From: Candidatus Poribacteria bacterium
GTDB lineage: Bacteria > Poribacteria > WGA-4E > WGA-3G
Direction of reading: 5' to 3'
DNA length: 64,000 nt
NCBI GenBank assembly: GCA_965221425.1
Contig: OZ244889.1
Span: forward strand, 3,077,415 to 3,141,414
Part shown: positions 813 through 59,285 of the stretch, piece after piece
How the letters are laid out: every line of letters starts with the position of its first letter
Position numbering within the stretch: position 1 is the first letter of the stretch
Made by a program: the position numbers and the translations under genes
The notes under the pieces: model-generated
The model's input: only the letters and a program-made list of their open reading frames with translations
What the model was told of the DNA's origin: nothing
Database searches by the model: none

Positions 813-3422
813 CTACCGAATCACAGCCAATCGGTGAATACTCTCCGCCTTTTTATCGTCAAGCACAGCACGGACTTTGTAAAAATAGACACCGTTTGCA
901 AGCGGTGTGCCTTCCGCGTCTTGTGCGTTCCATGCCACCTCGTTATAGCCTTCCTTCGCGGAAACATCTTTCAAAACGTGAATACGCCGTCCGGACACGT
1001 TATAAATTGTAATCTGCACCGTATCCGCATCAAGTGTCAGTTGATAAGTAAACGTAGTATTCCGCTTGAGCGGGTTCGGATAATTGTAGACGTTAGAGAT
1101 ACGCAATTCGGTCTCTTCGGGTGAAAAAGTTTCGTCATGTTTTTGGAGCGTTCGGTAGTCGAAACTGGAGAGAAATGTAACCTCTTCTTTTAAAGTCTTT
1201 ACCAATTCCACCTCATTTGTCTGGTGCGAATACCCGAAAAGCGGACCAAATTCGTTAAATTGCTTGATTAGAGGTTGTATAGACCTTGAGAACTCTGCAG
1301 CGCTGGCAAGTTTAGCACTAATGGCGCTGCCGGTGTTACGTTCATAGCCGAGCGCAATAGCTTCTACCAGTTTTTCGCGGCTCTGAAATAGTAAAACCCA
1401 TAGATTCATTAAGTACACGGCATCGTTCAAATCGTGTGCTGCGGCAAGGTCTACCGGTTCCGCGATTTCGTGTGCTTCCTGTATCTCGTTTGCTGCGCGT
1501 TGTTGCGGTGCTAAAAGTGCCGTGAATCGACTTGCGGCGGTCTGTGCAATTTTTAATTCCGGGATTGCCAACGTATTTTTCACTGCTCTCTCACCAATCA
1601 AGTTCCAAAACCGTGTAGCTAAACCAGCCGACCCGCTGCCGTAGGTGCCACCGATGGAAAGCGAACTTGCATAATCTGAAAAGTAGCTGGCTAACGTCCA
1701 ACCGTTGGTCCGGAGCGCGCTGAGAATCAAGTCAGCTGCCGCCGTGTTGCCGTAGCGTGCCACCAATTCATTATGCATTAGCTGGAGGTGGTCAAGTTGC
1801 ATATCCCAATTAATACGCGCGCTTACGAGACGGTCAAGGTAACCTAAGCCCTGCGTTGCACCTTGCACAGTAAACCCGCTTAACCCAACAACGTCAGGTG
1901 AGTTCGCAAGCTGACGCACCCCTTGTACAAACAGATCGCTTTCAAGCATCCAGAACGGCATAACCTCCTCAACATCATGTGAAAGCACAATGAATCGGTG
2001 TCCCATCTCTCCGAGCGTGTTCATCTGCTCAATCGGAATATTCGGATCGGTGATCGGTTCTCCATCTGCCCCCCATTTTTGCGAAAAAATCGTGCCTTTC
2101 GGTAATTGGCGTGCATAGTCACCATCGGGGTCTTGCAGCCAACTTCTGTTATAGCCTGAAATGTAAAACTTGAAATCGGGTCGGACTTCCTGTGCGGCTT
2201 TAATAATCGTGAAGTATACCTCCCACAGTTTCGCTTGTCCTTGCGGGGAGCGGTCACCACATTCGGGGCAATTGCATGCCCGCGTCTCATGCCCCCAAGA
2301 TCGCAAGTGAAAGCCCGCAAGGGTCGGGTAGGTCTTCACAATTTCCTGCGTTAATTGGCGTGCTAACGTGTGGAACTCCGGTTTTGACCAGCAAAACGGA
2401 CGATAAGAAACCTCGTTCCTTGATGCCCCATATAACACTTCCGGCCCCAACAGATCGGGACGCGCTTGAATAAGTGCCTCTGTCGGTTCACCTGTTAAAT
2501 ACATAAATAGGTACGCATCAATACCGCGATCTCTCAGTGCATTAAACCGGTTTTGAAGCGTTTCGATTCTTTTCAATCGTTGTGAGCGCGGTTCATCTTG
2601 CAGTTCTGAAAACGCGGGAGTGTCCACATATTTGAAGGCAGTGCCAAATCCGTCTTCAATCCCGGTTCCTGTCCAAACACCTTCACCCCCGCTCATATTC
2701 ACACGTTGCCTTGCAAGCCAATCCGGATCATCTATTTCCAATACGGCGCGAATAGGATAAAATGGGCGGGCAGTTGTGTCTAACTGCGGCAAAGACAGCG
2801 AAGGTGCGCGCTTCACTGCTATATCAGGATGGACAGGTTTAAGACCTGTTAACTCGGTAATACATGCCTCAATAAAGGCATAAGTGCCGTAAATCACACC
2901 GCGCGGCGTCCGGGCAGATATGACAATAACGATTTCTGCTCCAAGATCAGCGGATTTAATCTGATACCCCTCATCACCCAATTCTTCTGATAACACTAAA
3001 TCCATCTTTGTGCGAAGCGACTGAATCGTAGGATTTGAGGTCGGTGTGCCTAAAACGATGACCGTTCGCGTTGTCGTTGACTGTTGATTGGTGCGAAGTT
3101 CAAGTTGCGCGCCTGTCCATTTTTCAATAAAAGTTCGGATTTCGGCTGCAGCAAACCGCTCTTGTGTTGAAGCGTTAGCACCGATTTGCACGGTCGCTCT
3201 GGGTTCACCAGATACAACAATCGGTACCGCTGCCGCCTCCGCGTGCATAGCTACTATTAAAAGGCAGAATGTTATTTGCAGAAGAAGACACGCTTTTGTC
3301 CCGGATCGTCTGAATGTACTATTAATGTAACCCGATGACGCGCTGCTGGCAAGGTTTCCTAACCTTGCAGATCGTCTGACTGTACTATTAATGTAACCCA
3401 AGTTACCACCTATGTAGCACAA
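813..3422 (-). CDS. secreted glycoside-hydrolase-like protein with C-terminal Por/T9SS sorting domain (FlgD-Ig-like CTD); true start uncertain, probably near 3296
   Basis: The C-terminal ~80 aa (NYPNPLKRNTTFTYQL..ITIYNVSGRRIHVL..GVYFYKVRA) match the T9SS C-terminal sorting domain pattern. The central region has a CxCxxC motif and TIM-barrel GH-like character. A hydrophobic signal-like segment (KACLLLQITFCLLIVAM) has no in-frame ATG/GTG/TTG just upstream. The ORF 5' end at 3300-3422 translates through MITE-like repeat DNA. Confidence 0.7.
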   Translation of the reverse strand: MCYIGGNLGYINSTVRRSARLGNLASSASSGYINSTFRRSGTKACLLLQITFCLLIVAMHAEAAAVPIVVSGEPRATVQIGANASTQERFAAAEIRTFIEKWTGAQLELRTNQQSTTTRTVIVLGTPTSNPTIQSLRTKMDLVLSEELGDEGYQIKSADLGAEIVIVISARTPRGVIYGTYAFIEACITELTGLKPVHPDIAVKRAPSLSLPQLDTTARPFYPIRAVLEIDDPDWLARQRVNMSGGEGVWTGTGIEDGFGTAFKYVDTPAFSELQDEPRSQRLKRIETLQNRFNALRDRGIDAYLFMYLTGEPTEALIQARPDLLGPEVLYGASRNEVSYRPFCWSKPEFHTLARQLTQEIVKTYPTLAGFHLRSWGHETRACNCPECGDRSPQGQAKLWEVYFTIIKAAQEVRPDFKFYISGYNRSWLQDPDGDYARQLPKGTIFSQKWGADGEPITDPNIPIEQMNTLGEMGHRFIVLSHDVEEVMPFWMLESDLFVQGVRQLANSPDVVGLSGFTVQGATQGLGYLDRLVSARINWDMQLDHLQLMHNELVARYGNTAAADLILSALRTNGWTLASYFSDYASSLSIGGTYGSGSAGLATRFWNLIGERAVKNTLAIPELKIAQTAASRFTALLAPQQRAANEIQEAHEIAEPVDLAAAHDLNDAVYLMNLWVLLFQSREKLVEAIALGYERNTGSAISAKLASAAEFSRSIQPLIKQFNEFGPLFGYSHQTNEVELVKTLKEEVTFLSSFDYRTLQKHDETFSPEETELRISNVYNYPNPLKRNTTFTYQLTLDADTVQITIYNVSGRRIHVLKDVSAKEGYNEVAWNAQDAEGTPLANGVYFYKVRAVLDDKKAESIHRLAVIR

Positions 3423-3605
3423 TCTGTATGAAGATTAAATAAATATTTCGGTAAGGGGGCGAGGTTAGGAAACCTCGCCAGCAGTGGTGTATCCGTACCT
3501 TGGTAATTTTGCGAGGTTAGGAAACCTCGCAAAATTACCGATTTATCTTTTAATTTTCATTTAGATTGTGCATCCGTGAACGCAAACTAACAGTTTGCTC
3601 TACAA
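3412..3605. repeat. MITE-like element, family A, complete copy with ~40 bp TIRs and two GCGAGGTTAGGAAACCTCGC hairpins
   Basis: Left end 'tgtagcacaatctgtatgaagattaaataaatatttcggtaa'. Right end 'ttaccgatttatcttttaattttcat' followed by 'gtgcatccgtgaacgcaaactaacagtttgctctacaa'. The core hairpin is present twice (3459-3478, 3511-3530). Immediately upstream (3303-3400) a 30 bp direct repeat 'gatcgtctgaMtgtactattaatgtaaccc' brackets an inverted core. Confidence 0.7.
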
Positions 3606-3628
3606 AAATCGCTCATGCCGAACTTACA

Positions 3629-4399: not shown

Positions 4400-4572
4400 A
4401 ATATCAATATATCATATTTTTTTTTTGAATTCAAGCGAAACTTGTGTTATACTTTTGCTATACTGTATTTTGTAAGTTTAGCAATTTGCTATCTGAAAAT
4501 TCCGTATAGCAAATTTTAAGTTTAAACTTGAAACGTTTTTTCATGTCTAATACAACATAAACTTTTAGGAAA

Positions 4573-4735
4573 ATGAAGATTAAATAAATATTTCGGTAAG
4601 GGGGCGAGGTTAGGAAGAAATCAACGGTATGAATGCCATTTAGGCATTCCCCGCCTCGCCAGCAGCAGGTGCACATATCCGCTGACGAGGTTTCCTAACC
4701 TCGCCAAAATACCCAATTTATTTTTATCTTATATT
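4573..4735. repeat. MITE-like element family A copy carrying an extra internal 'AATGCCATTTAGGCATT' hairpin module
   Basis: 'atgaagattaaataaatatttcggtaagggggcgaggttaggaag..tcaacggtatgaatgccatttaggcattcc..ccagcagcaggtgcacatatccgctg..gaggtttcctaacctcgcc..acccaatttatttttatctt'. The 'cattcataccgttgatttcttcctaacc' module is shared with copies at 30400-30740 and 59170-59250. Confidence 0.65.
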
Positions 4736-4851
4736 CCTAAAAGTATGGTAGATCACCGAAAAGTGATGTGTCTAATAATTTGTAATTCACTATAATCCGT
4801 TTTCTCTCTAAAGAAAATGTAATTAAGAAAGACCTAAGGAGTCTAAATTTT

Positions 4852-7593
4852 ATGAAAGTTACAGTGATTTTAAAAACAACCTTAATAGCGATGTCCATCG
4901 CTTTAGCAATTTGTATGGTTTATTTGCCTGGCGCAGTAGCGCAGGAAGAAAGCACAGAAGAAACTGACGCTGCCTCTGAAGAAGAGGCCGTTGAACTTGA
5001 AAGCGTAGTGGTTGTCGGTACTCGGGCAAAGCCGCGTTCCGTTTTGGATTCAGCGGTACCGATCGATATTGTGTCAAGTGATGCCTTTGAAAAACAGGGT
5101 GGCGCGGATCTGCCGGATCTGCTGAGAACTTTGGTGCCATCTTACAACGTCAATACGCAGCCGATTAGTGATGCGTCAACAGTGGTCCGTCCGGCGAATT
5201 TACGGGGACTTGCCCCAGACCATACACTGGTACTCGTCAATAGCAAGCGACGCCACCGTGCCGCAGTGATTCACTGGCTCGGGAACGGTTTGTCTGATGG
5301 TTCACAGGGACCTGACCTGGCACCTATTCCCGCAATTGCTCTGCAACAGGTAGAGGTGCTACGCGACGGTGCATCGGCACAATACGGTTCTGATGCTATT
5401 GCTGGTGTGATGAACTTCCAATTGAAAGACAATTTTGAAGGCGGTTCGATTGAATTTAAACCCGGTATCTACCAACACGGCGACGGTAGACAATTTGCGC
5501 TCGCTGGCAACATCGGTTTAGGGGATACAGACGCGTGGACTAGCCTCAGTTTTGAATACGGTGGCGCAGATCCGACCATCCGTTCTGTGCAACGCGATGA
5601 CGCTATAAACCTGATTAACGCAGGCAATTTTAGTGTGAAAGACCCCGCGCAAATTTGGGGACAGCCGATTATAGAGAATGATGTCAAATTGTTTGCCAAC
5701 TACGGCGCTACCATCACAGATACCATCGAATTCTATGGACACGCCAACTACGCAAGTAAGCGCGTCGAAGGTGGGTTCTATTTCCGAAACCCAAACACTC
5801 GCAATGGTGTGTTTAGCCCAACCGGGAAAGATGATACGTTGCTCGTCGGGGATTTGCGAGGTTTGACAGATGAGATGGCAGCCTGGGAAACCCGAAAGGC
5901 AGAGTGGGAAGCCGAAAATGCGGCAGCAGTGGAAGCCGGGGAAACATTTCCTGAACTCTCACCTCACGATGCTGACGATATCCCAATAATAGATCACGAA
6001 CCGGATCCCGAAAAGTTGCAAGCCGTTAAGAATGACCCGAATCTATTCAATTTTCAAGAGATGTTCCCAGGCGGATTCACCCCCAGATTTGGTGCATTCA
6101 TGTGGGATAGTGCTGTCGTCGTTGGCGTTAAAGGCACCGCGTTCGAAGACACCTTGGATAACGACTTAACTTGGGATCTGAGCGGTTCTTTTGGACGTAA
6201 CCATGCTGATTTCTTTATCTTCAACACTGTTAATGCTTCGCTTGGCCCAGATACACCGACCCATTTTGATCCGGGTGACTATATCCAGACGGATTATAAC
6301 CTCAACTTTGATGTAACCTATCCGCTCAACGACACGGTGTTCCTCGCTTCTGGTTTGGAATATCGGGACGAAGGATTTGAAATCATAGAGGGCGAACGCG
6401 AGTCGCATCAGATCGGACCCCTCGCAGCGCAAGGCTTCACGGCTGCCTCCAACGGATTTTCGGGGTTCAGCCCAGTTGCAGCAGGCAAGTGGCACCGTTA
6501 CAACGTTGCCGCCTATGTGGAAACTGAAATCAGACCGATTGATCCGCTCCTGCTCGCGCTCGCTGTGCGCGGTGAACAATTTGAAATTTTCGGTAGCACC
6601 CTGAACTACAAAGCCGCTGCAAACTACAAGGTTACGGAAACGATGCGGTTGCGGGGAAGTTATAGTAGCGGGTTCCGCGCACCAACACCCGGACAGCAAA
6701 ATACGTTCAACATTACCACTGAATACGATTTTGAGAAGGGTGATCTCGTTAATAAAGGAACAATTCCTTCCACCAACGAGGCTGTTGGTGTTGTGACAGG
6801 CGAGGAAGATAACTCGCTTGACCCGGAAACATCAAATAACCTCACTGCTGGGTTTACCGTCGATATTCTGGGGGTAAACTTCACCGCTGATATTTTTGAT
6901 ATTCGGCTGAAAAACCGGTTATCGGTGTCACAACACTATACATTGGAAGACGAGCAGAAGGCGCAGCTCATTGCCGCAGGTGTAACCAGCGCTGCGAATC
7001 TGGAAACATTCCAGTTCTTTATCAATGACTTCAATACCACAACCCAAGGTGTTGATACTGTCATTACGGCACCAATACCGAATGGTACGCTCATTGCCGT
7101 GTATAACTTCACGGCAACTGAGGTTACCCATATCGTAATCGACGGAGAACTCGTCGAATTAACTTCTGAATTTGATGATCCTGATTATGAAGAGTGGAAA
7201 AAAGCCACACTGGACGCGCATCGAACCAGGGAACTGGAAGAGAATTTACCCAAACACCGCGCCAGCCTGACGCTCGCGCAATCCATAACGGATGCGTGGG
7301 GAGTAATCGCGCGCGCCAATTATTTTAGTGGTTGGTTCGATTCTGAAGATTACCTACAGAATCCAGATGTAGAAGGCACTGGAGAATACACTGGAAAGGT
7401 TACTGTCGACTTGGAAACCACTTACACCGTGGACTCCGGATTGGCACTCACGCTCGGTGGAAGAAATATCCTCAATACCTATCCTGATGAAAATCCGAAT
7501 GGTGCTGCTTCTGTCGGCAACAAATATGGGCAATTCAGTCCGTTCGGTTTTGACGGTGCATACTGGTATGCTAAAGTTGGTTACAGTTTCTAA
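4852..7593 (+). CDS. TonB-dependent outer-membrane receptor (paralog 1)
   Basis: Signal peptide, then an acidic linker (EESTEETDAASEEEAVELE). Plug-domain motifs (VVVGTR..PANLRGLAPDHTLVLVNSKRR; VLRDGASAQYGSDAIAGVMNFQLKD). ~650 aa barrel ending in aromatic 'GYSF'. RBS AAGGAG 10 nt upstream. Confidence 0.8.
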   Translation: MKVTVILKTTLIAMSIALAICMVYLPGAVAQEESTEETDAASEEEAVELESVVVVGTRAKPRSVLDSAVPIDIVSSDAFEKQGGADLPDLLRTLVPSYNVNTQPISDASTVVRPANLRGLAPDHTLVLVNSKRRHRAAVIHWLGNGLSDGSQGPDLAPIPAIALQQVEVLRDGASAQYGSDAIAGVMNFQLKDNFEGGSIEFKPGIYQHGDGRQFALAGNIGLGDTDAWTSLSFEYGGADPTIRSVQRDDAINLINAGNFSVKDPAQIWGQPIIENDVKLFANYGATITDTIEFYGHANYASKRVEGGFYFRNPNTRNGVFSPTGKDDTLLVGDLRGLTDEMAAWETRKAEWEAENAAAVEAGETFPELSPHDADDIPIIDHEPDPEKLQAVKNDPNLFNFQEMFPGGFTPRFGAFMWDSAVVVGVKGTAFEDTLDNDLTWDLSGSFGRNHADFFIFNTVNASLGPDTPTHFDPGDYIQTDYNLNFDVTYPLNDTVFLASGLEYRDEGFEIIEGERESHQIGPLAAQGFTAASNGFSGFSPVAAGKWHRYNVAAYVETEIRPIDPLLLALAVRGEQFEIFGSTLNYKAAANYKVTETMRLRGSYSSGFRAPTPGQQNTFNITTEYDFEKGDLVNKGTIPSTNEAVGVVTGEEDNSLDPETSNNLTAGFTVDILGVNFTADIFDIRLKNRLSVSQHYTLEDEQKAQLIAAGVTSAANLETFQFFINDFNTTTQGVDTVITAPIPNGTLIAVYNFTATEVTHIVIDGELVELTSEFDDPDYEEWKKATLDAHRTRELEENLPKHRASLTLAQSITDAWGVIARANYFSGWFDSEDYLQNPDVEGTGEYTGKVTVDLETTYTVDSGLALTLGGRNILNTYPDENPNGAASVGNKYGQFSPFGFDGAYWYAKVGYSF

Positions 7594-7607
7594 ACCTATA
7601 AAATAAA

Positions 7608-7650
7608 CTCAGTAGGCGTGTTTGTAAATCTGCAATTCACGCCTACTTAC
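7608..7650 (+). terminator. stem-loop downstream of TBDT paralog 1 (stem GTAGGCGTG/CACGCCTAC)
   Basis: 9 bp perfect stem starting 15 nt after the stop codon, followed by T-rich 'ttactttgtaagtt'. Confidence 0.4.
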
Positions 7651-7705
7651 TTTGTAAGTTCTGTTGTAAACCAAGTATTTTCATAACATAAGGGGAGATT
7701 AAATT

Positions 7706-10309
7706 ATGAAAGTCACAATTATCATTAAACCGCTTCTGCTTGCGTTTTACATAGCATTAGCGGTTTCTATGGTCTTTTCACCTGTTGTTGAAGCAGATAA
7801 CCATGAAAGTGAAACTGAACCAAGCGAAGCAGCATCTGATGAAGAAGTCGTAGAGCTTGAAGGATTGGTTATTGTCGGTACGCGTGCAAAACCACGTTCC
7901 GTTCTTGAATCCACTGTACCGATTGATGTTGTGCTTAGCGATGACTTTGTTAAACAGGGTGGCGCAGATGTGCCCGACCTGTTAAGAAATTTGGTACCTT
8001 CTTACAATGTAAATGCACAGCCTATCGCTGACGCAGCAACTGTGGTGCGCCCTGCAAATCTTAGGGGGTTAGCACCTGATCACACGTTGTTGCTTGTCAA
8101 CGGCAAACGTCGGCACCGAGCATCTGTGATTACTTGGCTTGGCAACGGATTATCCGATGGTTCACAAGGTGCGGATCTCTCACCTATTCCTGCTATCGCG
8201 ATCAAACAGATGGAAGTCCTACGGGATGGGGCATCCGCGCAATACGGTTCCGATGCTATTGCTGGTGTGATGAACTTACAATTGAAAGATAGTTACAAAG
8301 GCGGCTCTTTAGTAATTAAACCCGGTATTTATCAAGCAGGTGATGGACTCACATATTCTGTCGCCGGTAATATTGGTTTGGGTAGAGAAGATATCTGGGC
8401 AAATCTCAGTTTGGAATATGGCAACGCAGATGAAACAGAGCGTTCCGTACAACGAGACGATGCCGCCGCTCTGTCCGCTGCAGGGAATAGCTATGTTGCT
8501 AATCCTGCTCAACCTTGGGGACACCCGATTATTAGAGATGACATCAAATTCTTTGCAAATTATGGGGTCGACATTGTTAATAACATTCAACTCTACGGTC
8601 ATGCCAACTACGCACAAAAACAGGTTGAAGGTGGATTCTATTTCCGAAATCCCAATACTCGACCTGCCGTATTTAGCAATGACGGTGGAGAAACCTTGCT
8701 TGTGGGACGTGTAGCTGGGGAGGGTGAAGTTCCTGTGGTCAAGATAACTGATAATGTCCCAGACCCAGAGGCTTTACAAATGGTCTTTGATGACCCCAAC
8801 CTTTTCACATTCCAAGAACTCTTCCCGGGTGGTTTTACGCCCCGCTTCGGAGCTGACACGCAAGACCTTTCTGGTCTTGTTGGACTGAGAGGAACAGTCG
8901 CTGAGGATTTGGGATGGGATTTAAGTGCCTCTTATGGACGGCACGCTTCTGATTTCTTCATCAAGAATACTGTTAACGCCTCCCTTGGACCAGATACACC
9001 TACCGAATTTGATCCGGGTGATTATATCCAAGCGGATACGAACATTAACCTTGACCTTACTTATCCACTGCACGACCTTGTCTTTCTCGCTGCAGGTGGT
9101 GAATATCGAACTGAGACTTTCGAAATTGTGCAGGGTCAGGAGGAGTCTTGGAAAATTGGTCCATTGGCAAGTCAAGGATTCAGTTCCGGTTCAAACGGAT
9201 TCCCCGGCTTCAGTGATATTGCACAAGGCGATTGGACACGTTCCAATTTTGCGGGATATTTGGAAACCGAATTGAAACCGATTGACCCATGGGTTGTTAG
9301 CGCCGCTATCCGAGCCGAAAACTTTGAGGATTTTGGTAGCACAATCAATTACAAAGTTGCAACGAGTTATGCTTTTAGCAACGATCTCAAGGAACTTCTT
9401 ACACTTGATCCCGGGGTTGACTTGAGAGTTCGTGGCAGTTATAGCACAGGTTTCCGGGCACCGACGCCAGGACAACAAAATGCCTTTAACGTCACAACGG
9501 AATTCGGTGAAAACAATACGTTGGTCAATAAAGGCACTATTCCTTCCACGCATGCTGCCGCAGAATTAGTAGGTGGTAAAGCACTTGAACCTGAAAAGTC
9601 AAAAAACTTTACTGTGGGAACGGTGATCAGTGATGATGTCGTTAGTGTTACAATAGATTATTTCAATATCAAGGTTGAGGATCGGTTGGCGCCCACTAAA
9701 GACTTCCAACGCGGCGAAGATATTACTGAGGAACAGATCCAGCAACTCGTTGATGAAGGCATTACAAGTGCCGGAAACTTGCAAGAATTCCGATTCTTTA
9801 CTAATGAATTTGAAACAAGTACCCAAGGTATTGATATTGTGCTGACAGCACCTGTCGCCAAAGGCGCTGTGAGTTTGGCATATAACTACACCAATACTGA
9901 GGTTACCAAACGCAACGCTGATATCCTGGACGATACACGTGTCCGGTTATTGGAAGAAGGACTACCCAAACACCGTGGGAACGTGACGTTAACACAAAAT
10001 GTTGTAGGTAATTTAGGGGTTTTGGGACGCGTCAATTACTACGGACCTTGGTATGAGTATGCTGTCGGTTCACAAATCTATGACGACGTGTTTTTAGTTG
10101 ATCTTGAATTTAACTATGCATTTGCGGATAACTTAGGTATCACCGTTGGTGTGAATAATGTTTTTAATGTTGAACCTAATAACGTCACATGGTCAGACCC
10201 GAATATTGAGAACTTTACCGGTTCAATCGTTGGAAGACCTTTTGGTGAATATAGCCCTTACGGATTTGGCGGAGCGTTTTGGTATACCAAAATCGGTTAC
10301 AATTTCTAA
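7706..10309 (+). CDS. TonB-dependent outer-membrane receptor (paralog 2, tandem duplicate of 4852-7593)
   Basis: Same architecture: signal, acidic linker, conserved plug blocks (ANLRGLAPDHTLLLVNGKRRHRA..VLRDGASAQYGSDAIAGVMNLQLKD), terminal 'GYNF'. Extensive collinear similarity to paralog 1 by eye. RBS GGGGAG. Confidence 0.8.
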   Translation: MKVTIIIKPLLLAFYIALAVSMVFSPVVEADNHESETEPSEAASDEEVVELEGLVIVGTRAKPRSVLESTVPIDVVLSDDFVKQGGADVPDLLRNLVPSYNVNAQPIADAATVVRPANLRGLAPDHTLLLVNGKRRHRASVITWLGNGLSDGSQGADLSPIPAIAIKQMEVLRDGASAQYGSDAIAGVMNLQLKDSYKGGSLVIKPGIYQAGDGLTYSVAGNIGLGREDIWANLSLEYGNADETERSVQRDDAAALSAAGNSYVANPAQPWGHPIIRDDIKFFANYGVDIVNNIQLYGHANYAQKQVEGGFYFRNPNTRPAVFSNDGGETLLVGRVAGEGEVPVVKITDNVPDPEALQMVFDDPNLFTFQELFPGGFTPRFGADTQDLSGLVGLRGTVAEDLGWDLSASYGRHASDFFIKNTVNASLGPDTPTEFDPGDYIQADTNINLDLTYPLHDLVFLAAGGEYRTETFEIVQGQEESWKIGPLASQGFSSGSNGFPGFSDIAQGDWTRSNFAGYLETELKPIDPWVVSAAIRAENFEDFGSTINYKVATSYAFSNDLKELLTLDPGVDLRVRGSYSTGFRAPTPGQQNAFNVTTEFGENNTLVNKGTIPSTHAAAELVGGKALEPEKSKNFTVGTVISDDVVSVTIDYFNIKVEDRLAPTKDFQRGEDITEEQIQQLVDEGITSAGNLQEFRFFTNEFETSTQGIDIVLTAPVAKGAVSLAYNYTNTEVTKRNADILDDTRVRLLEEGLPKHRGNVTLTQNVVGNLGVLGRVNYYGPWYEYAVGSQIYDDVFLVDLEFNYAFADNLGITVGVNNVFNVEPNNVTWSDPNIENFTGSIVGRPFGEYSPYGFGGAFWYTKIGYNF

Positions 10310-13388: not shown

Positions 13389-13506
13389 AGCGAGGTTAGA
13401 AACCTCGCCAGCGAGAGCGTATCGGGAGTGTTGTCCATTGAGATGTCCACATATTTTCGGATTTTACGATAAAACGGTAGGCGCGGTTTCAAACCGCGCC
13501 TACAGG
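13389..13506. repeat. solo core hairpin GCGAGGTTAGAAACCTCGCCAGCGAG plus perfect 13 bp REP-like hairpin GTAGGCGCGGTTTCAAACCGCGCCTAC between convergent genes
   Basis: Core at 13389-13412. Hairpin at 13478-13504, likely a bidirectional terminator for the methyltransferase (+) and the LamG gene (-). Confidence 0.55.
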
Positions 13507-19941: not shown

Positions 19942-19996
19942 CAGGAAATCACTAATGTGTTGGATGTTTCTATAGAAGAATTGAATAAAAAATCTG

Positions 19997-20248
19997 ATGA
20001 CTAAAAAAAGAATTGCCACTGGCGTGGTACATAGAGTGCCAGCGGATCTACGAAAGACACTTATTTCTGCAAGTGCGGTGCAAGACGCATGGAATGACCT
20101 TACTCCCCTTGCCCGTAATGAATGGATTTGCTGGGTGACCTCCGTCAAAAAGCCGGAAACCAGAATACGTCGTATTGAGCGAGTGCGCACAGAGTTATTA
20201 GAAGGAAAACGTCGACCTTGTTGTTGGCCCGGTTGTCCTCACCGTTGA
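19997..20248 (+). CDS. YdeI/OmpD-associated (OmdA) family small protein
   Basis: C-terminal NEWICWVTSVKKPETRIRRIERV resembles the YdeI/OmdA family motif. Confidence 0.45.
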   Translation: MTKKRIATGVVHRVPADLRKTLISASAVQDAWNDLTPLARNEWICWVTSVKKPETRIRRIERVRTELLEGKRRPCCWPGCPHR

Positions 20249-20313
20249 AATAGGGAATCAGCGCGCAACATCAGTTGTTCGTTCAAATGGGTGTAAGAAA
20301 ATGGAGATCAGAC

Positions 20314-24626: not shown

Positions 24627-24680
24627 TATTTGACTTATTCTGCACAATCTGTAACCCCCGGTAAGATGGAAGCACGGACT

Positions 24681-30142: not shown

Positions 30143-30865
30143 AAAGTGTTTGTAGATATGTGCCAAACCTTTAGGTGTCAACTTAAGTACAAATTGCTTG
30201 ATCCTCTCTTGTAGGATTTATAAAGTTTCCACCACCTCTGTAGGCGCGTTTTGTAAACGCGCCGTTTATAGCGTCTGCTGTTTAGGCTCGGCGCGTTTAC
30301 AAAACGCGCCTACCAGGGTGGCGAACCGCTAAATTGATGCATAAGGTGCAGAAACGGAATACAAACTAACAGTTTGTCCTACAACACAGCGGTAGGTGGG
30401 GAATCATGGCGAATACCATACGCGTATTCGCCTAAATGGCATTCATACCGTTGATTTGGAGGTTTCCTAACCGCGCCGATGCAGAGTGTCAAAGTCCTTC
30501 TAAAATCTACTATGGTAAAACCTATAATTAATGGGACACTTCTGAGCATCAACCTGTTAGTTTGTGCAGATACGGACACAAACTAAATAAAGATTAAAAA
30601 TAAATTGGGTAATGTAGCGAGGTTAGGAAACCTCGCCAGCAGAGATATACACTTGCTGCTGGCAAGGCGGGGAATGCCTAAATGGCATTCATACCCGGGG
30701 AATGACTAAACGTCATTCATACCGTTGATTTCTTGATTTCTTCCTAACCTTGCCAATTACCGAAATATTTATTTAAACTTCATACAGTTTGTGCTACAAC
30801 CCCCTGGTAGGTTCGGTTTCCAACCGAACCGAACATAATGTCCAATTAATTCTAAAATCTACTAT
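30143..30865. repeat. 720 bp intergenic nest of at least five repeat units
   Basis: Units in order: 24 bp-stem palindrome pair 'taggcgcgttttgtaaacgcgcc..ggcgcgtttacaaaacgcgccta' (30236-30318); family B hairpins (30352-30390, 30528-30585); partial and complete family A MITE copies (30395-30480, 30588-30799); REP-like hairpin 'ggttcggtttccaaccgaacc' (30803-30826). Confidence 0.7.
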
Positions 30866-30895
30866 ATGCCCGTGCCAAACCTGAAAGGGGTAAAA

Positions 30896-33301: not shown

Positions 33302-33470
33302 TTGTAGCACAATCTGTCCGAAGATTAATTCGGTAATTTTCCATCCGCGCGAGGCACATATACCCGACTGCTGGCGAGGTTTCCGAACCTCGCCAAATTA
33401 CCGATTTATTTTCTTAATCTTCATTTCGATTGTGCCTGTGAGTGTGCAAACTGAAAGTTTACGCTACGAC
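33302..33470. repeat. MITE-like element family A copy (single core) with family B tail
   Basis: 'ttgtagcacaatctgtccgaagattaattcggtaa..ctgctggcgaggtttccgaacctcgccaaattaccgatttattttcttaatcttcat' then 'gtgcaaactgaaagtttacgctacgac'. Confidence 0.65.
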
Positions 33471-47626: not shown

Positions 47627-47667
47627 TTGTTGCTTCATTAAGTTTTTATAGTAGAGCATATAATTAC

Positions 47668-47800
47668 TTGGACATTTCTGAGCATCAACCTGTTAGGTTG
47701 TGCAGAAACGGAACACAACCTAACAGGTTGTGCTACAACACATGCAGTCCGTTAGGTTGCTAAACGCATGGATAAAAGTGTGCAGGTAATTCTAAAATCT
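47668..47800. repeat. family B palindromic repeat unit between convergent genes
   Basis: 'ggacatttctgagcatcaacctgttaggttgtgcagaaacggaacacaacctaacaggttgtgctacaaca', then the 'aattctaaaatctactat' motif also seen at 30500 and 30850. Inverted copy at 58315-58380. Confidence 0.65.
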
Positions 47801-47826
47801 ACTATAGGTGCTAAGATAAGTAAGGT

Positions 47827-50527: not shown

Positions 50528-50544
50528 ATCACGTTAATTTGGTA

Positions 50545-54876: not shown

Positions 54877-55009
54877 GGTTTAATTTCTATCTGTTTCCTT
54901 GATAAGTATATTGATATAATATCAGAAACAGTGTTAAATGTCAAGTAAGTTTCAGACTGATCATTTACACACCCAGAGTTGACAATGGGTGTGTAAATAT
55001 TTTGGCATG

Positions 55010-55290
55010 TGTGTCTGAATCGCGGATTACACGGAGGACGCGGAAGACGCGGATGGGAGATTGACAAGATAAGTTCCTTTTCAAGAGATTTAGGCAAACT
55101 TTGAATAGGAGTTTGGGAGGTGAAGATTAGGTTATTAGTTCAGTAATTTTCTGTCCAATGCAGGTGTACACCTCTGTTGGCGAGGTTTCCTAACCTCGCC
55201 AAATTACCTAATTTATTTTTTATCTTCATGCCCCAAACTTAATAATCCGCGAAATCTGTGACAATCCGCGATTCAGACAGAGTTGACAAG
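55010..55290. repeat. half MITE family A element flanked by inverted 'GTCTGAATCGCGGATT' units
   Basis: 55012-55060 'gtctgaatcgcggattacacggaggacgcggaagacgcggatggg'. 55161-55230 'caggtgtacacctctgttggcgaggtttcctaacctcgccaaattacctaatttattttttatcttcatg' (right half only). 55262-55282 'aatccgcgattcagac' inverted. Confidence 0.6.
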
Positions 55291-55338
55291 AACCCTTATT
55301 TATGATATTCTATTCCTGTTTTACAGTAAAAAACAAAT

Positions 55339-56147: not shown

Positions 56148-56178
56148 TTCAATCAATTTCTACAAAGGATTGATTGTG
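56148..56178. promoter_or_regulatory. inverted repeat CAATCAAT-N12-ATTGATTG upstream of the Hsp20 cluster (candidate operator)
   Basis: Perfect 8 bp arms ~200 bp upstream of the first Hsp20 ATG. Does not match CIRCE or HAIR consensus. Confidence 0.25.
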
Positions 56179-56255
56179 AATTTCTCTGGACTCCGTTAGC
56201 AGTATGGCAATATCCGGGTTTAATCGCTCATTATAGATAGGATAAAACGTTGTTT

Positions 56256-56271
56256 TGGCATATAAATTGCT
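56256..56271 (+). promoter_or_regulatory. sigma-54-like -24/-12 element TGGCAT-N5-TTGCT
   Basis: Matches YTGGCACG-N4-TTGCW in the GG and GC positions with correct spacing. ~100 nt upstream of the Hsp20-1 start. Confidence 0.3.
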
Positions 56272-56371
56272 CATACCTATTGTAGATGGAAAGCATTTTA
56301 GAATTGTGTCAAAAATTGGCACAGAACTTGCTAATTAAACTTACAAAAAACATAAATCTAAAGGAGAAAAA

Positions 56372-56825
56372 AATGAGACATTTAACAACACGCAGACCGA
56401 TAGGAAATCTATTCAACCTTCACAACGAGATGGGAAGAGTTTTTGGAGATCTGCTCTCCTCTCAGGACAGTGAAACTAATGCTGAAAATACGTCTTGGAT
56501 GCCCACGGTAGACATCTCTGAAACAGAAAATAGTTTTGAAATTCATGCTGAACTTCCTGGTGCCGTGGAAAGCGATGTCAACGTCTCAGTAACTGACAAC
56601 CTGCTCACAATTAAAGGTGAAAAGCGACAGGAAGAGAAGGCTGAAGGCAAAAACTTCCATCGTATAGAAAGAAGATACGGTAGTTTCCAAAGAAGTTTTA
56701 CGCTACCGAGGAATGTTGAAACCGCTGATATCAAAGCTGGATTCAAAGATGGTGTGTTGGCTCTTACAATTCCAAAAGCGGAAGCGGCAAAACCGACTGA
56801 AATTCCGATTTCGGTAAACTCTTAA
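56372..56825 (+). CDS. Hsp20/alpha-crystallin small heat-shock protein (1 of 3 tandem)
   Basis: ACD consensus WMPTVDISE..FEIHAELPGAVESDVNVSV..LTIKGEKRQE..RIERRYGSFQRSFTLP..GVLALTIPK. AAGGAGA RBS. Confidence 0.85.
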
Positions 56826-56908
56826 CCTAATAAAAACGGACGTGCCCTTCTCCAAAATACTATGAGGGCATGTCCTCCGATACGCATAACAAGATAAGGA
56901 GAAGAAAA

Positions 56909-57364
56909 ATGACTTATTTGACTTTACGCAAACCAGTAGCAAACCCTTTCAGGTTCTACAACTCTCTGTTTACGCCGTTATTTGCGCGACCCGAAACACA
57001 AGAATACAAATGGAGACCATCTGCTGACATTACAGAAACGGATGATAGTTTTGAAGTTCGGGCTGAACTCCCCGGTGTCACAAAGGATGATGTCCAAATC
57101 TCTGTTAAAGAGAACCTCTTAACGATAAAGGGAGAAAAACGGCAGGAAAAAACTGACGATTCCAAGAATTTTCGGCGAGTCGAACGACATTACGGAAGCT
57201 TCGAACGGAAATTTGCACTTCCTCCGAAGGTAGAAGCTGACAGCATCAAAGCCGAATTCAAGGACGGTGTCTTAACGGTGTCTATTCCAAAACCAGAAGA
57301 GGTAAAACCGAAAGAAATTCCGATTATTGCTGAATCGGCTGCGGATGCGCCGCAAGAGCGTTAA
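56909..57364 (+). CDS. Hsp20/alpha-crystallin small heat-shock protein (2 of 3)
   Basis: WRPSADITE..FEVRAELPGVTKDDVQISV..LTIKGEKRQE..RVERHYGSFERKFALP..GVLTVSIPK. AAGGAGA RBS. Confidence 0.85.
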   Translation: MTYLTLRKPVANPFRFYNSLFTPLFARPETQEYKWRPSADITETDDSFEVRAELPGVTKDDVQISVKENLLTIKGEKRQEKTDDSKNFRRVERHYGSFERKFALPPKVEADSIKAEFKDGVLTVSIPKPEEVKPKEIPIIAESAADAPQER

Positions 57365-57386
57365 AATAATCCTAAATTCAATAGGG

Positions 57387-57420
57387 TAGGCACAATTGGT
57401 TGTGCCTACCCTATTGACGT
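57387..57420 (+). terminator. 16 bp-stem hairpin AATAGGGTAGGCACAA/TTGTGCCTACCCTATT after Hsp20-2
   Basis: Near-perfect palindrome 23 nt after the stop codon. Confidence 0.4.
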
Positions 57421-57511
57421 TGCATCACTTAATCCGAACAATTTGAGAGGTATAGCGGTCAAAGAAAGTGAAGAATAAATTAGATTACAAATTTAGAAAA
57501 GGAGAATTGGA

Positions 57512-58186
57512 ATGAGAAATAGACCACAACGCGGTCCCAGAGGTGGACGGCGACATCAGTTCACACAGGGACGCGGTAGAAGACAGCGTCCTCATCGTTC
57601 GGGACACACTGAAGCAGAAAGACAGGGACCACCACTGCAAGCAAAAGGACGCCGACAACACCGATCACCTGAAACACGTGGAAATTGGGAACACCGTCCA
57701 CCGAGAGGTAGGAGAAATCGTCGCCGTTCAGCACAAGTGAACTTCAGACCACATCATCCAATGCGAGATATTTTTCTGCATCACAATCGGATGAGGCACG
57801 TTTTTGACAGAAGGTTCGCGTATCGTGAAGGAAAAACGAAAAGAGAAAAATCTAATTGGCGTCCACCCATTGAGTTTTCTGTTTCTGAAGATAAATATGA
57901 AGTATTAGTTGAACTCCCTGGCGTTTCACAAAACGATGTCAGTGTTTCTGTAACTGACAATCTATTAAAGATAAAAGGGGAAAAGGAGCGGAAGGACACA
58001 GATGAAAAGCAAAGGGTACGCCGATCTGATCTACGATACGGAAGTTTTAAACGTGCGCTGCCACTCCCACCAAATGCGAAAGCTGACGGTATAAAAGCCG
58101 AATTCAAGGATGGTGTTTTAACAATTGAGATTCCGAAAACAGAAGCGGCAAAACCAACTGAAATTCCTATCAACGCTGATGCTTAA
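57512..58186 (+). CDS. Hsp20/alpha-crystallin protein (3 of 3) with ~90 aa arginine/glycine-rich basic N-terminal extension
   Basis: ACD WRPPIEFSVSE..YEVLVELPGVSQNDVSVSV..LKIKGEKERKD..RRSDLRYGSFKRALPLP..GVLTIEIPK. N-terminal RGPRGGRRHQFTQGRGRRQRPHRSGH..RGRRNRRRS. The AAGGAGA RBS sits 7 nt before the ATG at 57512, the same context as the two upstream paralogs. The internal Met at 57764 lacks an RBS. Confidence 0.65.
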   Translation: MRNRPQRGPRGGRRHQFTQGRGRRQRPHRSGHTEAERQGPPLQAKGRRQHRSPETRGNWEHRPPRGRRNRRRSAQVNFRPHHPMRDIFLHHNRMRHVFDRRFAYREGKTKREKSNWRPPIEFSVSEDKYEVLVELPGVSQNDVSVSVTDNLLKIKGEKERKDTDEKQRVRRSDLRYGSFKRALPLPPNAKADGIKAEFKDGVLTIEIPKTEAAKPTEIPINADA

Positions 58187-58269
58187 TCCGATATATTGTG
58201 ATGTAAGGTCCCTGTGCCTTGCAATAATAAAAAAGTAAGGCTATAGTAAACTTTAGAATTAATTGGACA

Positions 58270-58380
58270 TTAGGATCGGTTCGGTCAGAAAACCGAAACT
58301 ACCGCAGGCACTGTCCCATAACCTATTAGGTTGTGTTCCGTTTCTGCACAACCTAACAGGTTATGCTACAAAATGTCCTT
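58270..58380. repeat. family B palindromic repeat (inverted orientation relative to 47668 copy) between convergent Hsp20-3 and aquaporin
   Basis: 'cctattaggttgtgttccgtttctgcacaacctaacaggttatgctacaa', preceded by 'ggacattaggatcggttcggtcagaaaaccgaaactaccgc'. Confidence 0.6.
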
Positions 58381-58422
58381 TTAATGCTAAAAGCATCAGC
58401 CTGTTTTCTTTTAGATTATTCA

Positions 58423-59076
58423 CTACTCAGCTTTAGCGTCTTTCTCTTTCAAAACACCAATATAGAGAAGTGCAGCAAGCACTGCCCCTATAAATGGACC
58501 AACAAAGTAGAGCCAAAGGTCAGCATAATTACCGCTTGCAATAGCAGGTCCAAGCGTCCGTGCAGGATTCAGAGATGCCCGCGTCAATGGACCACCCATC
58601 AGGATACAAAACACTAAAGTTAACCCGATGGCAAGTCCTGCAAGGTTTCTCGCTTTTCCGCTTACGGCTGTGTTGAAAATCGTATTAACGAGGAAGAAAG
58701 TTAGTATGATTTCAACTATTAACCCATTTATCGGTGTCACATTGGTAGCTAAAATAGTTACACCCAAATCACCATCTACCGGTAGTACTGCTTTAAGCAC
58801 CAATGCCCCTGCAATTCCACCAGCAAACTGCACAATCCAATATCCTATCGATGCAGCAAATCGGATTTCTCCTGCTACCAAGAGTCCGAGCGTCACAGCA
58901 GGGTTAATATGTGTGCCTGAGATATGCCCATAAGCATACGCAAACGCCACAATGACCAACCCGTGGGCAAGTGCAACGCCTACTAACCCTCCCTTGTCAA
59001 TTGCTAACGCACCAGCACCGATAAAAATTAGCGCGAAGGTACCGATAAATTCAACAACTAAATTCCGTGTATTCAT
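58423..59076 (-). CDS. aquaporin / MIP-family channel
   Basis: Two NPA boxes (SGTHINPAVTLG; SLNPARTLGPA). Six TM segments. Confidence 0.9.
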   Translation of the reverse strand: MNTRNLVVEFIGTFALIFIGAGALAIDKGGLVGVALAHGLVIVAFAYAYGHISGTHINPAVTLGLLVAGEIRFAASIGYWIVQFAGGIAGALVLKAVLPVDGDLGVTILATNVTPINGLIVEIILTFFLVNTIFNTAVSGKARNLAGLAIGLTLVFCILMGGPLTRASLNPARTLGPAIASGNYADLWLYFVGPFIGAVLAALLYIGVLKEKDAKAE

Positions 59077-59088
59077 AGAAAATCTATC

Positions 59089-59285
59089 TTGGGTTCAAAT
59101 GAAGTTTAAATAAATATTTCGGTAATGTGGCGAGGTTAGGAAACCTCACCAGCAGCAGGTGTACATCTCTGCTGGCGAGGCGGGGAATCATGCAGCATGC
59201 CACACGCGCATGCTGCCACGCGCATTCATACCGTTGATTTCTTCCTAACCTCGCTAAATTACCCAATTTATTTTTTAATCTTCAT
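59089..59285. repeat. MITE-like element family A, complete copy with both TIRs
   Basis: 'atgaagtttaaataaatatttcggtaatgtggcgaggttaggaaacctcaccagcagcaggtgtacatctctgctggcgagg..catgctgccacgcgcattcataccgttgatttcttcctaacctcgctaaattacccaatttattttttaatcttcat'. Confidence 0.7.

What the first reader, a model, noticed from the sequence alone, without database searches (positions are those of the whole stretch)
3412..59285. Dense population of modular MITE-like elements with ~27-43 bp terminal inverted repeats and nested hairpin modules
Complete or partial copies lie at 3412-3605, 4573-4735, 30588-30799, 33302-33470, 55161-55230 and 59089-59285. Solo cores lie at 675-700 and 13389-13412.

All share the ends TTGTAGCACAAnCTGTATGAAGATTAAATAAATATTTCGGTAA / TTACCGAAATATTTATTTAAnCTTCAT. 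Inside is a GCGAGGTTAGGAAACCTCGC hairpin and a CCAGCAG-N15-CTGCTGG hairpin. Optional modules include AATGCCATTTAGGCATTC..CATTCATACCGTTGATTTCTTCCTAACC.

That is about one complete element per 10 kb, always intergenic and often between convergent genes. No transposase is in the window, so these are non-autonomous. The TIR could identify the parent IS family elsewhere in the genome.

This density and modularity (swappable internal hairpins) is unusual for bacterial MITEs. The elements could function as terminators, mRNA stabilisers or recombination hotspots.
Basis: seen in the sequence. Interest (0 to 1): 0.6.

Follow-up and report, generated by a model that had tools for sequence, protein, structure and literature searches.

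The report
Hairpin-tip-seeking mini transposons in Poribacteria
The window, from a sponge-symbiont (Poribacteria) genome, holds six copies of a small non-coding mobile element that inserts at the tip of existing DNA hairpins, so elements pile up inside one another like Russian dolls.

Summary
The six copies are real and far beyond chance.

The core family is a 82-300 bp palindromic, non-coding element. Its ends are 27-bp imperfect inverted repeats: ATGAAGWTTAAATAAATATTTCGGTAA ... TTACCSAATT..AAWCTTCAT. An exact 25-mer of one end hit 95+ stretches in 32 species-level genomes, 31 of them labelled Candidatus Poribacteria.

Among 79 complete copies:
- 73% sit between the two arms of a hairpin (random control 0.6%; intergenic YT-NNN-AR sites 2.5%), almost always two bases into the loop on each side.
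- 63 of 79 duplicate one base.

Undisturbed hairpins of the same families have 3-base loops. Relatives carry the empty hairpin where the window has copy 59099-59285.

The "swappable modules" are subfamily-specific cores plus further nested small inserts.

No transposase lies in the window, and none was found next to about 120 sampled ends. The mobilising enzyme is therefore unknown.

There is no support for a terminator role or for placement between convergent genes.

Verdict: a previously undescribed (in the searched literature) MITE-like family with structure-directed, hairpin-apex insertion and a 1-bp target duplication.

The parts
3428..3560 (+). Copy 1 of the element ('shell'). It runs from the A-end ATGAAGATTAAATAAATATTTCGGTAA to the B-end TTACCGATTTATCTTTTAATTTTCAT. 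The interior is rearranged, with two GCGAGGTTAGGAAACCTCGC hairpins.
3414..3427 (.). Left arm (GTAGCACAATCT) plus loop half (GT) of the GTAG-tagged REP-like host hairpin split by copy 1. The right half is TTAGATTGTGC at 3561-3571. The duplicated base is T.
3578..3605 (.). Second, uninterrupted REP-like hairpin of the doublet (CGCAAACT-AAC-AGTTTGC, then CTAC).
4573..4732 (+). Copy 2. The A-end is exact and the B-end is decayed (..ATCTTAT). It carries the small nested X module at 4617-4653. The host hairpin is CTTTTAGGA(AA) at 4562-4572 and (AT)TCCTAAAAG at 4733-4743. The duplicated base is A.
30587..30783 (-). Copy 3, inverted (B-end at left, A-end at right). It holds two tandem X cores at 30668-30723. 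It sits in the REP-like hairpin CACAAACT(AA) at 30577-30586 and (AC)AGTTTGTG-CTAC at 30784-30797. The duplicated base is A.
30511..30866 (.). An outer, different element whose ends resemble TATAGTAGATTTTAGAATTAATTGGACA. It carries the REP-like pair that hosts copy 3. An uninterrupted relative lies at 47647-47806.
33318..33424 (+). Copy 4, a dead copy. Its tip is mutated to CCGAAG and it has an 8-bp deletion in the A-end. It sits in a REP-like hairpin (33307-33317 and 33425-35). The same insertion is present at the orthologous site of L107.
55120..55229 (+). Copy 5, with a diverged A-end (GTGAAGATTAGG..). It sits in the hairpin GTTTGGG(AG)|(GC)CCCAAAC of another element. The duplicated base is G.
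54986..55290 (.). Host of copy 5: a different MITE with ends TGTCTGAATCGCGGAT (55012-55027) and ATCCGCGATTCAGACA (55264-55279). It is bounded by the direct repeat CAGAGTTGACAA (54974-85 and 55278-89). The whole block is absent from L101, L102 and L104.
59099..59285 (+). Copy 6, with intact ends. It carries an X-module remnant with a further insert at about 59175-59241. The host hairpin is TGGGTTC(AA) at 59090-59098 and (AA)GAACCCA at 59286-59294. The orthologous site is empty in L099/L100 and L104 (GGTTTC-TTT-AAACC).
675..700 (+). Solo REP-like hairpin of the core type (GCGAGGTTCAGAAACCTCGC + CAGCAG), lying outside any shell.
13389..13412 (+). Solo core-type hairpin GCGAGGTT-AGA-AACCTCGC + CAGCG, with a 3-base loop.
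3343..3368 (-). Solo core-type hairpin CTGCTGG-CAAGGTT-TCCT-AACCTTG-C.
47647..47806 (.). Uninterrupted outer element with an intact REP-like pair (47680-47703 and 47713-47738). It serves as a paralogous 'empty site' for copy 3.
58242..58381 (.). Another outer element with a REP-like pair. It is a 140-bp insertion absent from the orthologous spacer of L096, L097 and L099.

Best explanation
**What it is**
The loci are copies of a Poribacteria-wide family of non-autonomous palindromic DNA transposons (MITE-like).
- A copy is defined by 27-bp imperfect terminal inverted repeats: ATGAAGWTTAAATAAATATTTCGGTAA at one end and TTACCSAATT..AAWCTTCAT at the other.
- These enclose a subfamily-specific core that is itself a REP-like hairpin, or a doublet of them.

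**How it most likely works**
- A trans-acting enzyme encoded elsewhere binds the ends. It has not been identified (inferred).
- It integrates the element at the apex of a pre-existing DNA hairpin or cruciform whose stem closes with Y-T...A-R (shown).
- The joins lie two bases into the loop on each strand. At the usual 3-base loop this gives a 1-base stagger and duplicates the central loop base: N1N2[element]N2N3 (shown).
- Recognition of an extruded structure rather than a sequence is inferred. Complementarity extends 6-11 bp with no sequence conservation beyond YT/AR.

**Consequences**
- The element is a palindrome, so the host stem plus the element refolds as one longer hairpin with a fresh apical loop. 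Elements therefore nest.
For: **Family and distribution**
- An exact 25-mer of the A-end gave 95+ stretches in 32 species-level genomes, 31 labelled Poribacteria.
- A further 13 stretches were found in metagenomes; every one with enough flank shown is a short copy with a B-end.
- At least 7 core subfamilies share the ends.

**Target**
- Of 79 complete copies, 73% are flanked by 6 or more contiguous complementary bases, against 0.6% at random positions. The offset is almost always 2+2.
- Only 2.5% of intergenic YT-NNN-AR sites have such stems.
- Position -3 is T in 62/70 sites and +3 is A in 63/70. The stems have 29 different 6-mers.

**Duplication**
- The same base lies on both sides in 63 of 79 copies.
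- Uninterrupted hairpins of the same families have 3-base loops: 49/50, 25/25 and 5/5.

**Mobility**
- L099/L100 and L104 are colinear with the window and carry the hairpin GGTTTC-TTT-AAACC without the element. The window has GGGTTC-TT[187 bp]TT-GAACCC at that place.
- Copy 4 is shared with L107, so insertions are of different ages.
- Copies within one genome share compensatory variants: 96% identity within genomes against 93% between.

**Folding and nesting**
- Host stem plus element folds as one hairpin, z = -10 to -11.
- One shell inside another shell was seen in L087.
Against: - No autonomous copy or cognate transposase was found. About 120 sampled A-ends are all short elements. The only transposase seen, an IS4-family one in L003, has its own ends and is nested inside a shell.
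- A 1-bp duplication is not typical of any insertion-sequence family I know of (my own knowledge).
- Only one clean orthologous empty site was obtained, seen in two genomes.
- About a quarter of copies lack a good flanking stem.
- Sites in 4-base AGGA/TCCT loops show no duplication, so the exact cutting rule ('3-base loops only' versus '2+2 ruler') is unsettled.
- Post-insertion selection, with insertions surviving only in hairpins, cannot be fully excluded.
Confidence: 0.78

Rival explanations
1. REPIN-like elements mobilised on single-stranded DNA by a single-copy, vertically inherited HUH/Y1 transposase (RAYT-like), not by a DDE transposase of a parent insertion sequence.
For: - The element is a long palindrome that folds as a hairpin.
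- Most cores and most targets are GTAG-tagged REP-like hairpins.
- The family persists across many species of one phylum.
- No multi-copy autonomous parent was found among about 120 ends.
- Targeting of single-strand hairpin loops fits single-stranded DNA chemistry.
Against: - Well-defined 27-bp terminal inverted repeats and a 1-bp target duplication point to staggered double-strand joining. IS200/IS605-type insertion gives no duplication (established knowledge of that family).
- The GTAG tag is not at the element ends.
- Insertion occurs in both orientations relative to the target loop: GT|TT 9 times, AA|AC 6 times.
- No RAYT-like ORF was found in 0.87 Mb of held Poribacteria DNA, though this is weak evidence.
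Confidence: 0.17
2. One reading: one modular MITE family with 27-43 bp terminal repeats (TTGTAGCACAA..CGGTAA) and interchangeable internal hairpin modules.
For: Three window copies do show the 43-bp symmetry.
Against: - The outer 14-16 bp differ from copy to copy and match whatever hairpin family was hit.
- The same REP-like hairpin occurs uninterrupted with a 3-base loop.
- Copy 59099 has a unique flank whose empty version exists in relatives.
Confidence: 0.03
3. Not mobile DNA but conserved structural or regulatory hairpins (terminators, mRNA stabilisers, small RNAs) kept by selection.
For: - Very strong predicted folding.
- Always intergenic.
- One terminator-like match overlaps copy 1 at 3500-3541.
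Against: - Presence/absence at an orthologous site.
- Both orientations occur, and all contexts are divergent or tandem genes.
- No T-tract follows the stem, and terminator-like counts are not above shuffles.
- No Rfam family matched.
- Decayed copies exist.
Confidence: 0.02

Closest known systems
Bacterial MITEs (e.g. Correia/NEMIS of Neisseria, Nezha of cyanobacteria, ERIC)
   Same: - Small, non-coding and multi-copy.
- About 26-bp terminal inverted repeats.
- Intergenic location.
- The whole element folds as a hairpin.
- Presence/absence polymorphism.
   Different: - Known MITEs duplicate a target of 2-9 bp chosen by sequence (for example TA for Correia; my own knowledge).
- Here the target is the apex of unrelated hairpins and the duplication is 1 bp.
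- No parent insertion sequence has been identified.
REP-targeting insertion sequences (IS1397/ISKpn1/ISPsy8 of IS3; ISPpu9/10 and IS621 of IS110; ISRm22), Tobes and Pareja 2006, PMC1525189
   Same: - Insertion into palindromic extragenic repeats.
- ISPsy8 and ISRm22 insert exactly at the symmetry axis.
- The flanking REP halves mimic longer inverted repeats.
   Different: - Those are autonomous insertion sequences, each tied to one REP sequence family, with direct repeats of 0, 2, 3 or 6 bp.
- Here a non-autonomous element uses at least 29 different stems and duplicates 1 bp.
REPINs / RAYT systems (Bertels and Rainey 2011, PMC3116915); GTAG-tagged REPs (Di Nocera et al. 2013, PMC3733652)
   Same: - Long hairpin-forming palindromes.
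- Lineage-wide persistence.
- GTAG-tagged hairpins are abundant in these genomes.
- REPs nested in other palindromes have been noted in Anabaena.
   Different: - The element ends are not REPs with a GTAG tag.
- Clear terminal inverted repeats and a 1-bp duplication.
- No RAYT has been linked to it.
IS30 family
   Same: - The terminal 12 bases TGAAGATTAAAT match E. coli IS30 TGTAGATTCAAT at 10 of 12 positions.
- IS30 prefers palindromic hot spots and makes very short duplications (my own knowledge).
   Different: - The similarity stops after 12 bases.
- The IS30A copy read here is flanked by a 2-bp repeat (AC).
- The shell has an extra invariant A/T outside TG..CA.
- No IS30-like ORF is present in the held Poribacteria DNA.
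Small dispersed repeats (SDR) of Nostoc (Elhai et al. 2008)
   Same: Very small elements found nested within other repeats and mini-transposons. This resembles the X module and the GGGTTTTTGCTGGGGTGTTTC unit seen here.
   Different: - A different phylum and different sequences.
- The paper could not be read here, so this comparison rests on memory.

Membership tests
MITE (generic) | Short (about 50-500 bp), no coding capacity | tested here: met
   Of 79 complete copies, 75 measure 82-299 bp. Four larger spans (368-1604 bp) are a tandem array, paired ends of separate copies, or a copy carrying a nested IS4-family element. No conserved ORF.
MITE (generic) | Terminal inverted repeats | tested here: met
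   27-bp imperfect repeats, matching at 22 of 27 positions by my manual alignment of the A-end and the common B-end read.
MITE (generic) | Target-site duplication | tested here: met
   1 bp, seen in 63 of 79 copies. Consistent with 3-base loops in uninterrupted hairpins and with the empty site.
MITE (generic) | Multi-copy, with insertion polymorphism | tested here: met
   95+ stretches in 32 genomes. Empty site in L099 and L104.
MITE (generic) | Parent insertion sequence with matching ends and a transposase | tested here: not met
   None found among about 120 ends. Long end-to-end pairs enclose housekeeping genes. The IS4-family element in L003 has other ends. Complete genomes could not be scanned.
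REPIN / REP (RAYT-associated) | Two inverted REPs, each with a conserved GTAG-type tag at the outer end | tested here: not met
   The ends are ATGAAG../..CTTCAT. GTAG-tagged hairpins occur in the core or as targets, not at the ends.
REPIN / REP (RAYT-associated) | A cognate RAYT gene flanked by the repeats | tested here: inconclusive
   No homologue of E. coli RayT in 0.87 Mb of held loci.
IS30-derived element | Ends similar to IS30-family repeats | tested here: inconclusive
   10 of 12 terminal bases match, with nothing beyond.
IS30-derived element | 2-3 bp duplication; IS30-type DDE transposase present | tested here: not met
   The duplication is 1 bp. No IS30-like ORF in the held loci.
Intrinsic terminator | GC-rich hairpin directly followed by a T-run, at the 3' end of genes | tested here: not met
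   Only one incidental match (3500-3541). Counts are not above shuffles. The copies lie between divergent or tandem genes.
Known RNA family (Rfam) | Match at the gathering score | tested here: not met
   0 matches in the window.

The most novel reading that the evidence does not exclude
The elements are moved by an enzyme that reads DNA shape rather than sequence. It would capture an extruded hairpin or cruciform and join the element two bases into the loop on each strand. This would be a structure-guided transposition system, possibly run by a new or domesticated single-copy transposase kept throughout the phylum Poribacteria. By creating a new apical loop at each insertion, it would manufacture its own future targets.
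Probability: 0.3. Interest if true: 0.8.

Novelty: new variant of a known kind. Interest (0 to 1): 0.6.

Why it matters
- **Target rule.** It would be a clear case of a bacterial mobile element choosing its target by DNA secondary structure across unrelated sequences, with an unusual 1-bp duplication.
- **Origin of complex repeats.** It explains how complex 'modular' palindromic repeats can arise simply by repeated apex-into-apex nesting.
- **Use in Poribacteria genomics.** It gives Poribacteria, an uncultured and abundant sponge-symbiont phylum, a diagnostic repeat family. That family is useful for strain typing, for flagging assembly problems and for dating insertions.
- **Low-harm insertion.** Apex insertion of a self-folding element leaves the base of the host hairpin intact. 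This suggests a low-cost 'safe site' strategy.
- **Possible tool.** If the enzyme is found, it could be of interest as a structure-directed integration tool.

Tried and rejected
1. **Cyanobacterial repeats.** My first guess was Nostoc SDR or Nezha elements. I dropped it after Pfam showed T9SS-tail and TonB-receptor genes and the genome scan hit only Poribacteria.
2. **Rfam at gathering scores.** Nothing matched.
3. **Viral contigs.** No hits.
4. **Search for an autonomous parent.**
   - The long A-end to B-end pairs in L030 and L064 enclose BamB-like genes, RecA and similar, so they are separate copies.
   - L003 holds an IS4-family transposase, but with its own ends, nested in the core.
   - All A-ends without a nearby B-end are decayed, truncated or repeat-stuffed copies.
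   - Clustering of ORFs gave only paralogous housekeeping families.
   - The metagenome scan gave 13 more stretches and no autonomous copy.
5. **IS30 lead.** Only the 12 terminal bases resemble IS30, and no IS30-like ORF was found.
6. **RAYT search.** No RayT-like ORF was found in the held loci.
7. **Abutted end-to-end junctions or cargo-free mini-shells.** None were found.
8. **Terminator or promoter role.** Counts were not above shuffles.
9. **Exact-protein look-ups of the source genome.** These failed. The source is inferred from a 100%-identical aquaporin on a 5.24-Mb NCBI/ENA contig, with relatives at 82-93% identity named Poribacteria.
10. **4-base AGGA/TCCT loops as excision footprints.** Considered and set aside, because only that loop type is common. 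It looks inherited within one hairpin family.


Full report
**1. Observation**

All six stated copies are present.
- The 27-base end ATGAAGWTTAAATAAATATTTCGGTAA occurs four times in the window with at most 3 mismatches. None is expected in 100 shuffles.
- The hairpin GCGAGGTTAGGAAACCTCGC occurs ten times, against none expected.
- Repeat finding recovers the same loci and shows that each copy is a long imperfect palindrome.
- Refined limits are 3428-3560, 4573-4732, 30587-30783 (inverted), 33318-33424, 55120-55229 and 59099-59285.

**2. Source organism**

I first suspected cyanobacterial repeats, but that was wrong.
- Flanking genes encode T9SS-tail proteins, TonB receptors and sulfatases.
They come from 32 genomes, 31 labelled Candidatus Poribacteria and one 'uncultured bacterium'.
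- The window's aquaporin is 100% identical to a protein on a 5.24-Mb NCBI/ENA contig. Homologues at 82-93% identity are named Poribacteria by their sources.
- The window therefore comes from a Poribacteria genome, an uncultured sponge-symbiont phylum.
- I found no paper in the held library that describes non-coding repeats in this phylum.

**3. Anatomy**

Across 108 A-ends the conserved part is a 'shell':
- an A-end ATGAAGWTTAAATAAATATTTCGGTAA;
- a B-end TTACCSAATT..AAWCTTCAT, which matches the A-end at 22 of 27 positions by my manual alignment.

The interior differs by subfamily.
- The window's type is GCGAGGTTAGGAAACCTCGC-CAGCAG-N13-CTGCTG-GCGAGGTTTCCTAACCTCGC.
- Other types are built around GATCGCGAGCACAGCTCGC, GTAGGGGCGGGGTTTCCCCGCCC, GGTAGGTGCGGTTTCTAACCGCACC, GTAGGGGCAGGTCTTGTGCCTGCCC and others.
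- Most of these cores are GTAG-tagged REP-like hairpins.
- Sizes cluster at 102, 105, 115 and 126 bp; the smallest is 82 bp.
- Each subfamily has its own B-end variant, so shell and core spread together.

**4. The key finding: the flanks**

Among 79 complete copies:
- 73% are flanked by at least 6 contiguous complementary bases, against 0.6% at 20,000 random positions.
- Two unpaired bases nearly always lie on each side of the element.
- The stems are unrelated: 29 different 6-mers among 70 distinct sites.
- Only the closing pairs are conserved. T is at -3 in 62/70 and A at +3 in 63/70; Y is at -4 and R at +4.
- Even among intergenic YT-NNN-AR sites, only 2.5% have such stems.
- The base next to the element is the same on both sides in 63 of 79 copies.

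Uninterrupted hairpins of the same families have 3-base loops:
- CACAAnCT-NNN-AGnTTGTG: 49 of 50;
- AGTCCC-GTA-GGGACT: 25 of 25;
- CCCCCTT-GAT-AAGGGGG: 5 of 5.

Filled sites read N1N2[element]N2N3: AAC becomes AA|AC, GTT becomes GT|TT, GTA becomes GT|TA, ACA becomes AC|CA. The element therefore inserts at the hairpin apex and duplicates the central loop base.

Sites of the AGGA/TCCT type read AG|GA and TC|CT. These fit either a 'two bases in from each side' ruler or rare AGA/TCT loops. This point stays open.

**5. Mobility**

- Orthologous loci were fetched through the aquaporin and QueF proteins.
- L099/L100 and L104 are colinear with the window across the sulfatase-aquaporin spacer. They read ..AAGGGAGGGGTTTC-TTT-AAACCTAAAA.. 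where the window, on the minus strand, reads GGGTTC-TT[187-bp element]TT-GAACCC.
- The hairpin therefore predates the insertion, and the difference is the element plus one T.
- Copy 4 (33318-33424) is shared with L107. Both have the same mutated tip (CCGAAG), so this is an old, dead copy.
- Copies within one genome share compensatory variants (GGCAAGG/CCTTGCC against GGCGAGG/CCTCGCC). Mean identity is 96% within genomes and 93% between them. This points to amplification after the lineages split.

**6.

- The 'TTGTAGCACAA' extension is the arm of a GTAG-tagged REP-like hairpin. That hairpin belongs to other mobile units:
  - an element with ends like TATAGTAGATTTTAGAATTAATTGGACA at 47647-47806, 58242-58381 and 30511-30866. 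The 58242 copy is a 140-bp insertion absent from three relatives;
  - an element with ends TAACTCAAGTTGCTAC, present in L096 and absent in L097.
- Copy 5 sits inside a third element. Its ends are TGTCTGAATCGCGGAT and it is bounded by a 12-bp direct repeat. The whole block is missing in three relatives.
- The 'optional modules' are a small unit (GAAATCAACGGTATGAATGCCATTTAGGCATTCCCCG) lodged in one arm of the core hairpin, sometimes in tandem or itself interrupted. I could not resolve its insertion rule.
- Host stem plus element folds as one continuous hairpin, z = -10 to -11.
- Shells occur inside shells (L087), and in both loops of a REP-like pair.

**7. Mechanism**

Shown:
- terminal repeats;
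- apex targeting;
- a 1-bp duplication;
- polymorphism between relatives;
- nesting.

Inferred:
- A trans-acting enzyme binds the 27-bp ends and captures an extruded hairpin or cruciform. Sequence-independent complementarity over 6-11 bp cannot be read on ordinary duplex DNA.
- It joins the element two bases into the loop on each strand, giving a 1-base stagger at 3-base loops.
- Both orientations relative to the loop occur. This fits a symmetric double-strand target.

The main rival is a RAYT-like single-strand mechanism. It is favoured by the absence of any autonomous copy among about 120 sampled ends and by the REP-rich setting. It is disfavoured by the terminal repeats and the duplication.

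**8. The enzyme**

- There is no transposase in the window.
- The only transposase next to a shell is an IS4-family element in L003. It has its own ends and is nested in the core hairpin.
- The terminal 12 bases resemble E. coli IS30 at 10 of 12 positions, but nothing else fits that family.
- No RayT-like ORF was found in the held loci.

**9. Function**

- None of the six copies lies between convergent genes.
- Terminator-like and promoter-like matches are not above shuffled expectation.
- No Rfam family matched.
- Apex insertion of a self-folding element should leave the base of the host hairpin intact. This is a plausible reason why such sites are tolerated, but it is an inference.

**10. 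Comparison and novelty**

- Insertion sequences that target REPs, some exactly at the symmetry axis, are known (PMC1525189). So are REPINs (PMC3116915) and REPs nested in other palindromes (PMC3733652).
- What is new here:
  - a non-autonomous family shared across a candidate phylum;
  - use of many unrelated hairpins as targets;
  - duplication of a single base.
- I rate it a new variant of a known kind.

**11. Limits**

- All A-ends were selected by an exact 25-mer.
- Only one clean orthologous empty site was obtained.
- Whole genomes could not be scanned for the parent.
- There are no experimental data.

Noticed in passing
window 24630-27377 (stop codon at 25749-25751): A formate-dehydrogenase-like molybdopterin oxidoreductase is split into two ORFs by an in-frame TGA (..SRA-TGA-HAPTVAGL..). 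The reading frame is the same on both sides. This is probably a selenocysteine codon, not a gene break.
   Followed up: partly
L003 3272-4741: An IS4-family insertion sequence (NF033592; ends CATAGGTGTCAATTTAGTG) is nested in the apical hairpin of a shell. The whole 19-bp hairpin GTGCGGTTTGTAACCGCAC is present on both sides. That is an unusually long, palindromic duplication. A solo look-alike end, TAGGTGTCAACTTAAGTAC, lies at window 30172-30190.
   Followed up: partly
window 30143-30895; L107 4611-5000; L109 4984-5000: The pepA-queF spacer is 17 bp in L109, about 390 bp in L107 and about 750 bp in the window. In the window the repeat-filled block is bounded by the direct repeat GTGCCAAACC (30160-30169 and 30872-30881). 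QueF homologues are 131 aa, so the real start is probably near 30896, not 30866.
   Followed up: partly
window 47647-47806, 58242-58381, 30511-30866: A separate MITE-like family has ends like TATAGTAGATTTTAGAATTAATTGGACA and carries a pair of GTAG-tagged REP-like hairpins. The 58242 copy is absent from three orthologous loci and is flanked by TA.
   Followed up: partly
window 54986-55290; also 712-746: Another MITE-like family has ends TGTCTGAATCGCGGAT. The copy at 54986 is bounded by a 12-bp direct repeat, CAGAGTTGACAA, which contains a TTGACA box. It is absent from L101, L102 and L104.
   Followed up: partly
L096 2735-2975 versus L097 2960-2975; window 3392-3409: A further element with ends TAACTCAAGTTGCTAC / GTAGCAACTTGAGTTA is present upstream of the aquaporin gene in L096. 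It is absent in L097. Only a remnant of one end occurs in the window.
   Followed up: partly
window 4617-4653, 30668-30732, 59175-59241, 30401-30457: A small nested unit, GAAATCAACGGTATGAATGCCATTTAGGCATTCCCCG, is lodged in one arm of REP-like hairpins. The two tandem cores at 30668-30723 differ by compensatory changes (GCC/GGC versus GAC/GTC). Its insertion rule is unresolved.
   Followed up: partly
L008, L011, L012, L031, L095, L111 (shell interiors): A non-palindromic unit of about 22 bases, GGGTTTTTGCTGGGGTGTTTC, recurs inside hairpin loops of shell cores, sometimes in tandem. It is reminiscent of the very small dispersed repeats of Nostoc.
   Followed up: no
L018, L050, L072, L078, L081: The repeat CTTTAGTCCCGTAGGGACGATATGTTTATAG recurs at short, irregular spacing. 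It looks CRISPR-like at first glance, but the spacers are too short. It is also a target of the shell, which inserts in its GTA loop.
   Followed up: no
L085 about 6300-6700 (minus strand): A tandem array, period about 132 bp, made of a half shell plus its left flank.
   Followed up: no
window 4852-10309, 18682-21573, 56286-58186: Tandem paralogues: two TonB-dependent receptors (about 72% DNA identity), two LarA-like genes and three HSP20 genes.
   Followed up: no
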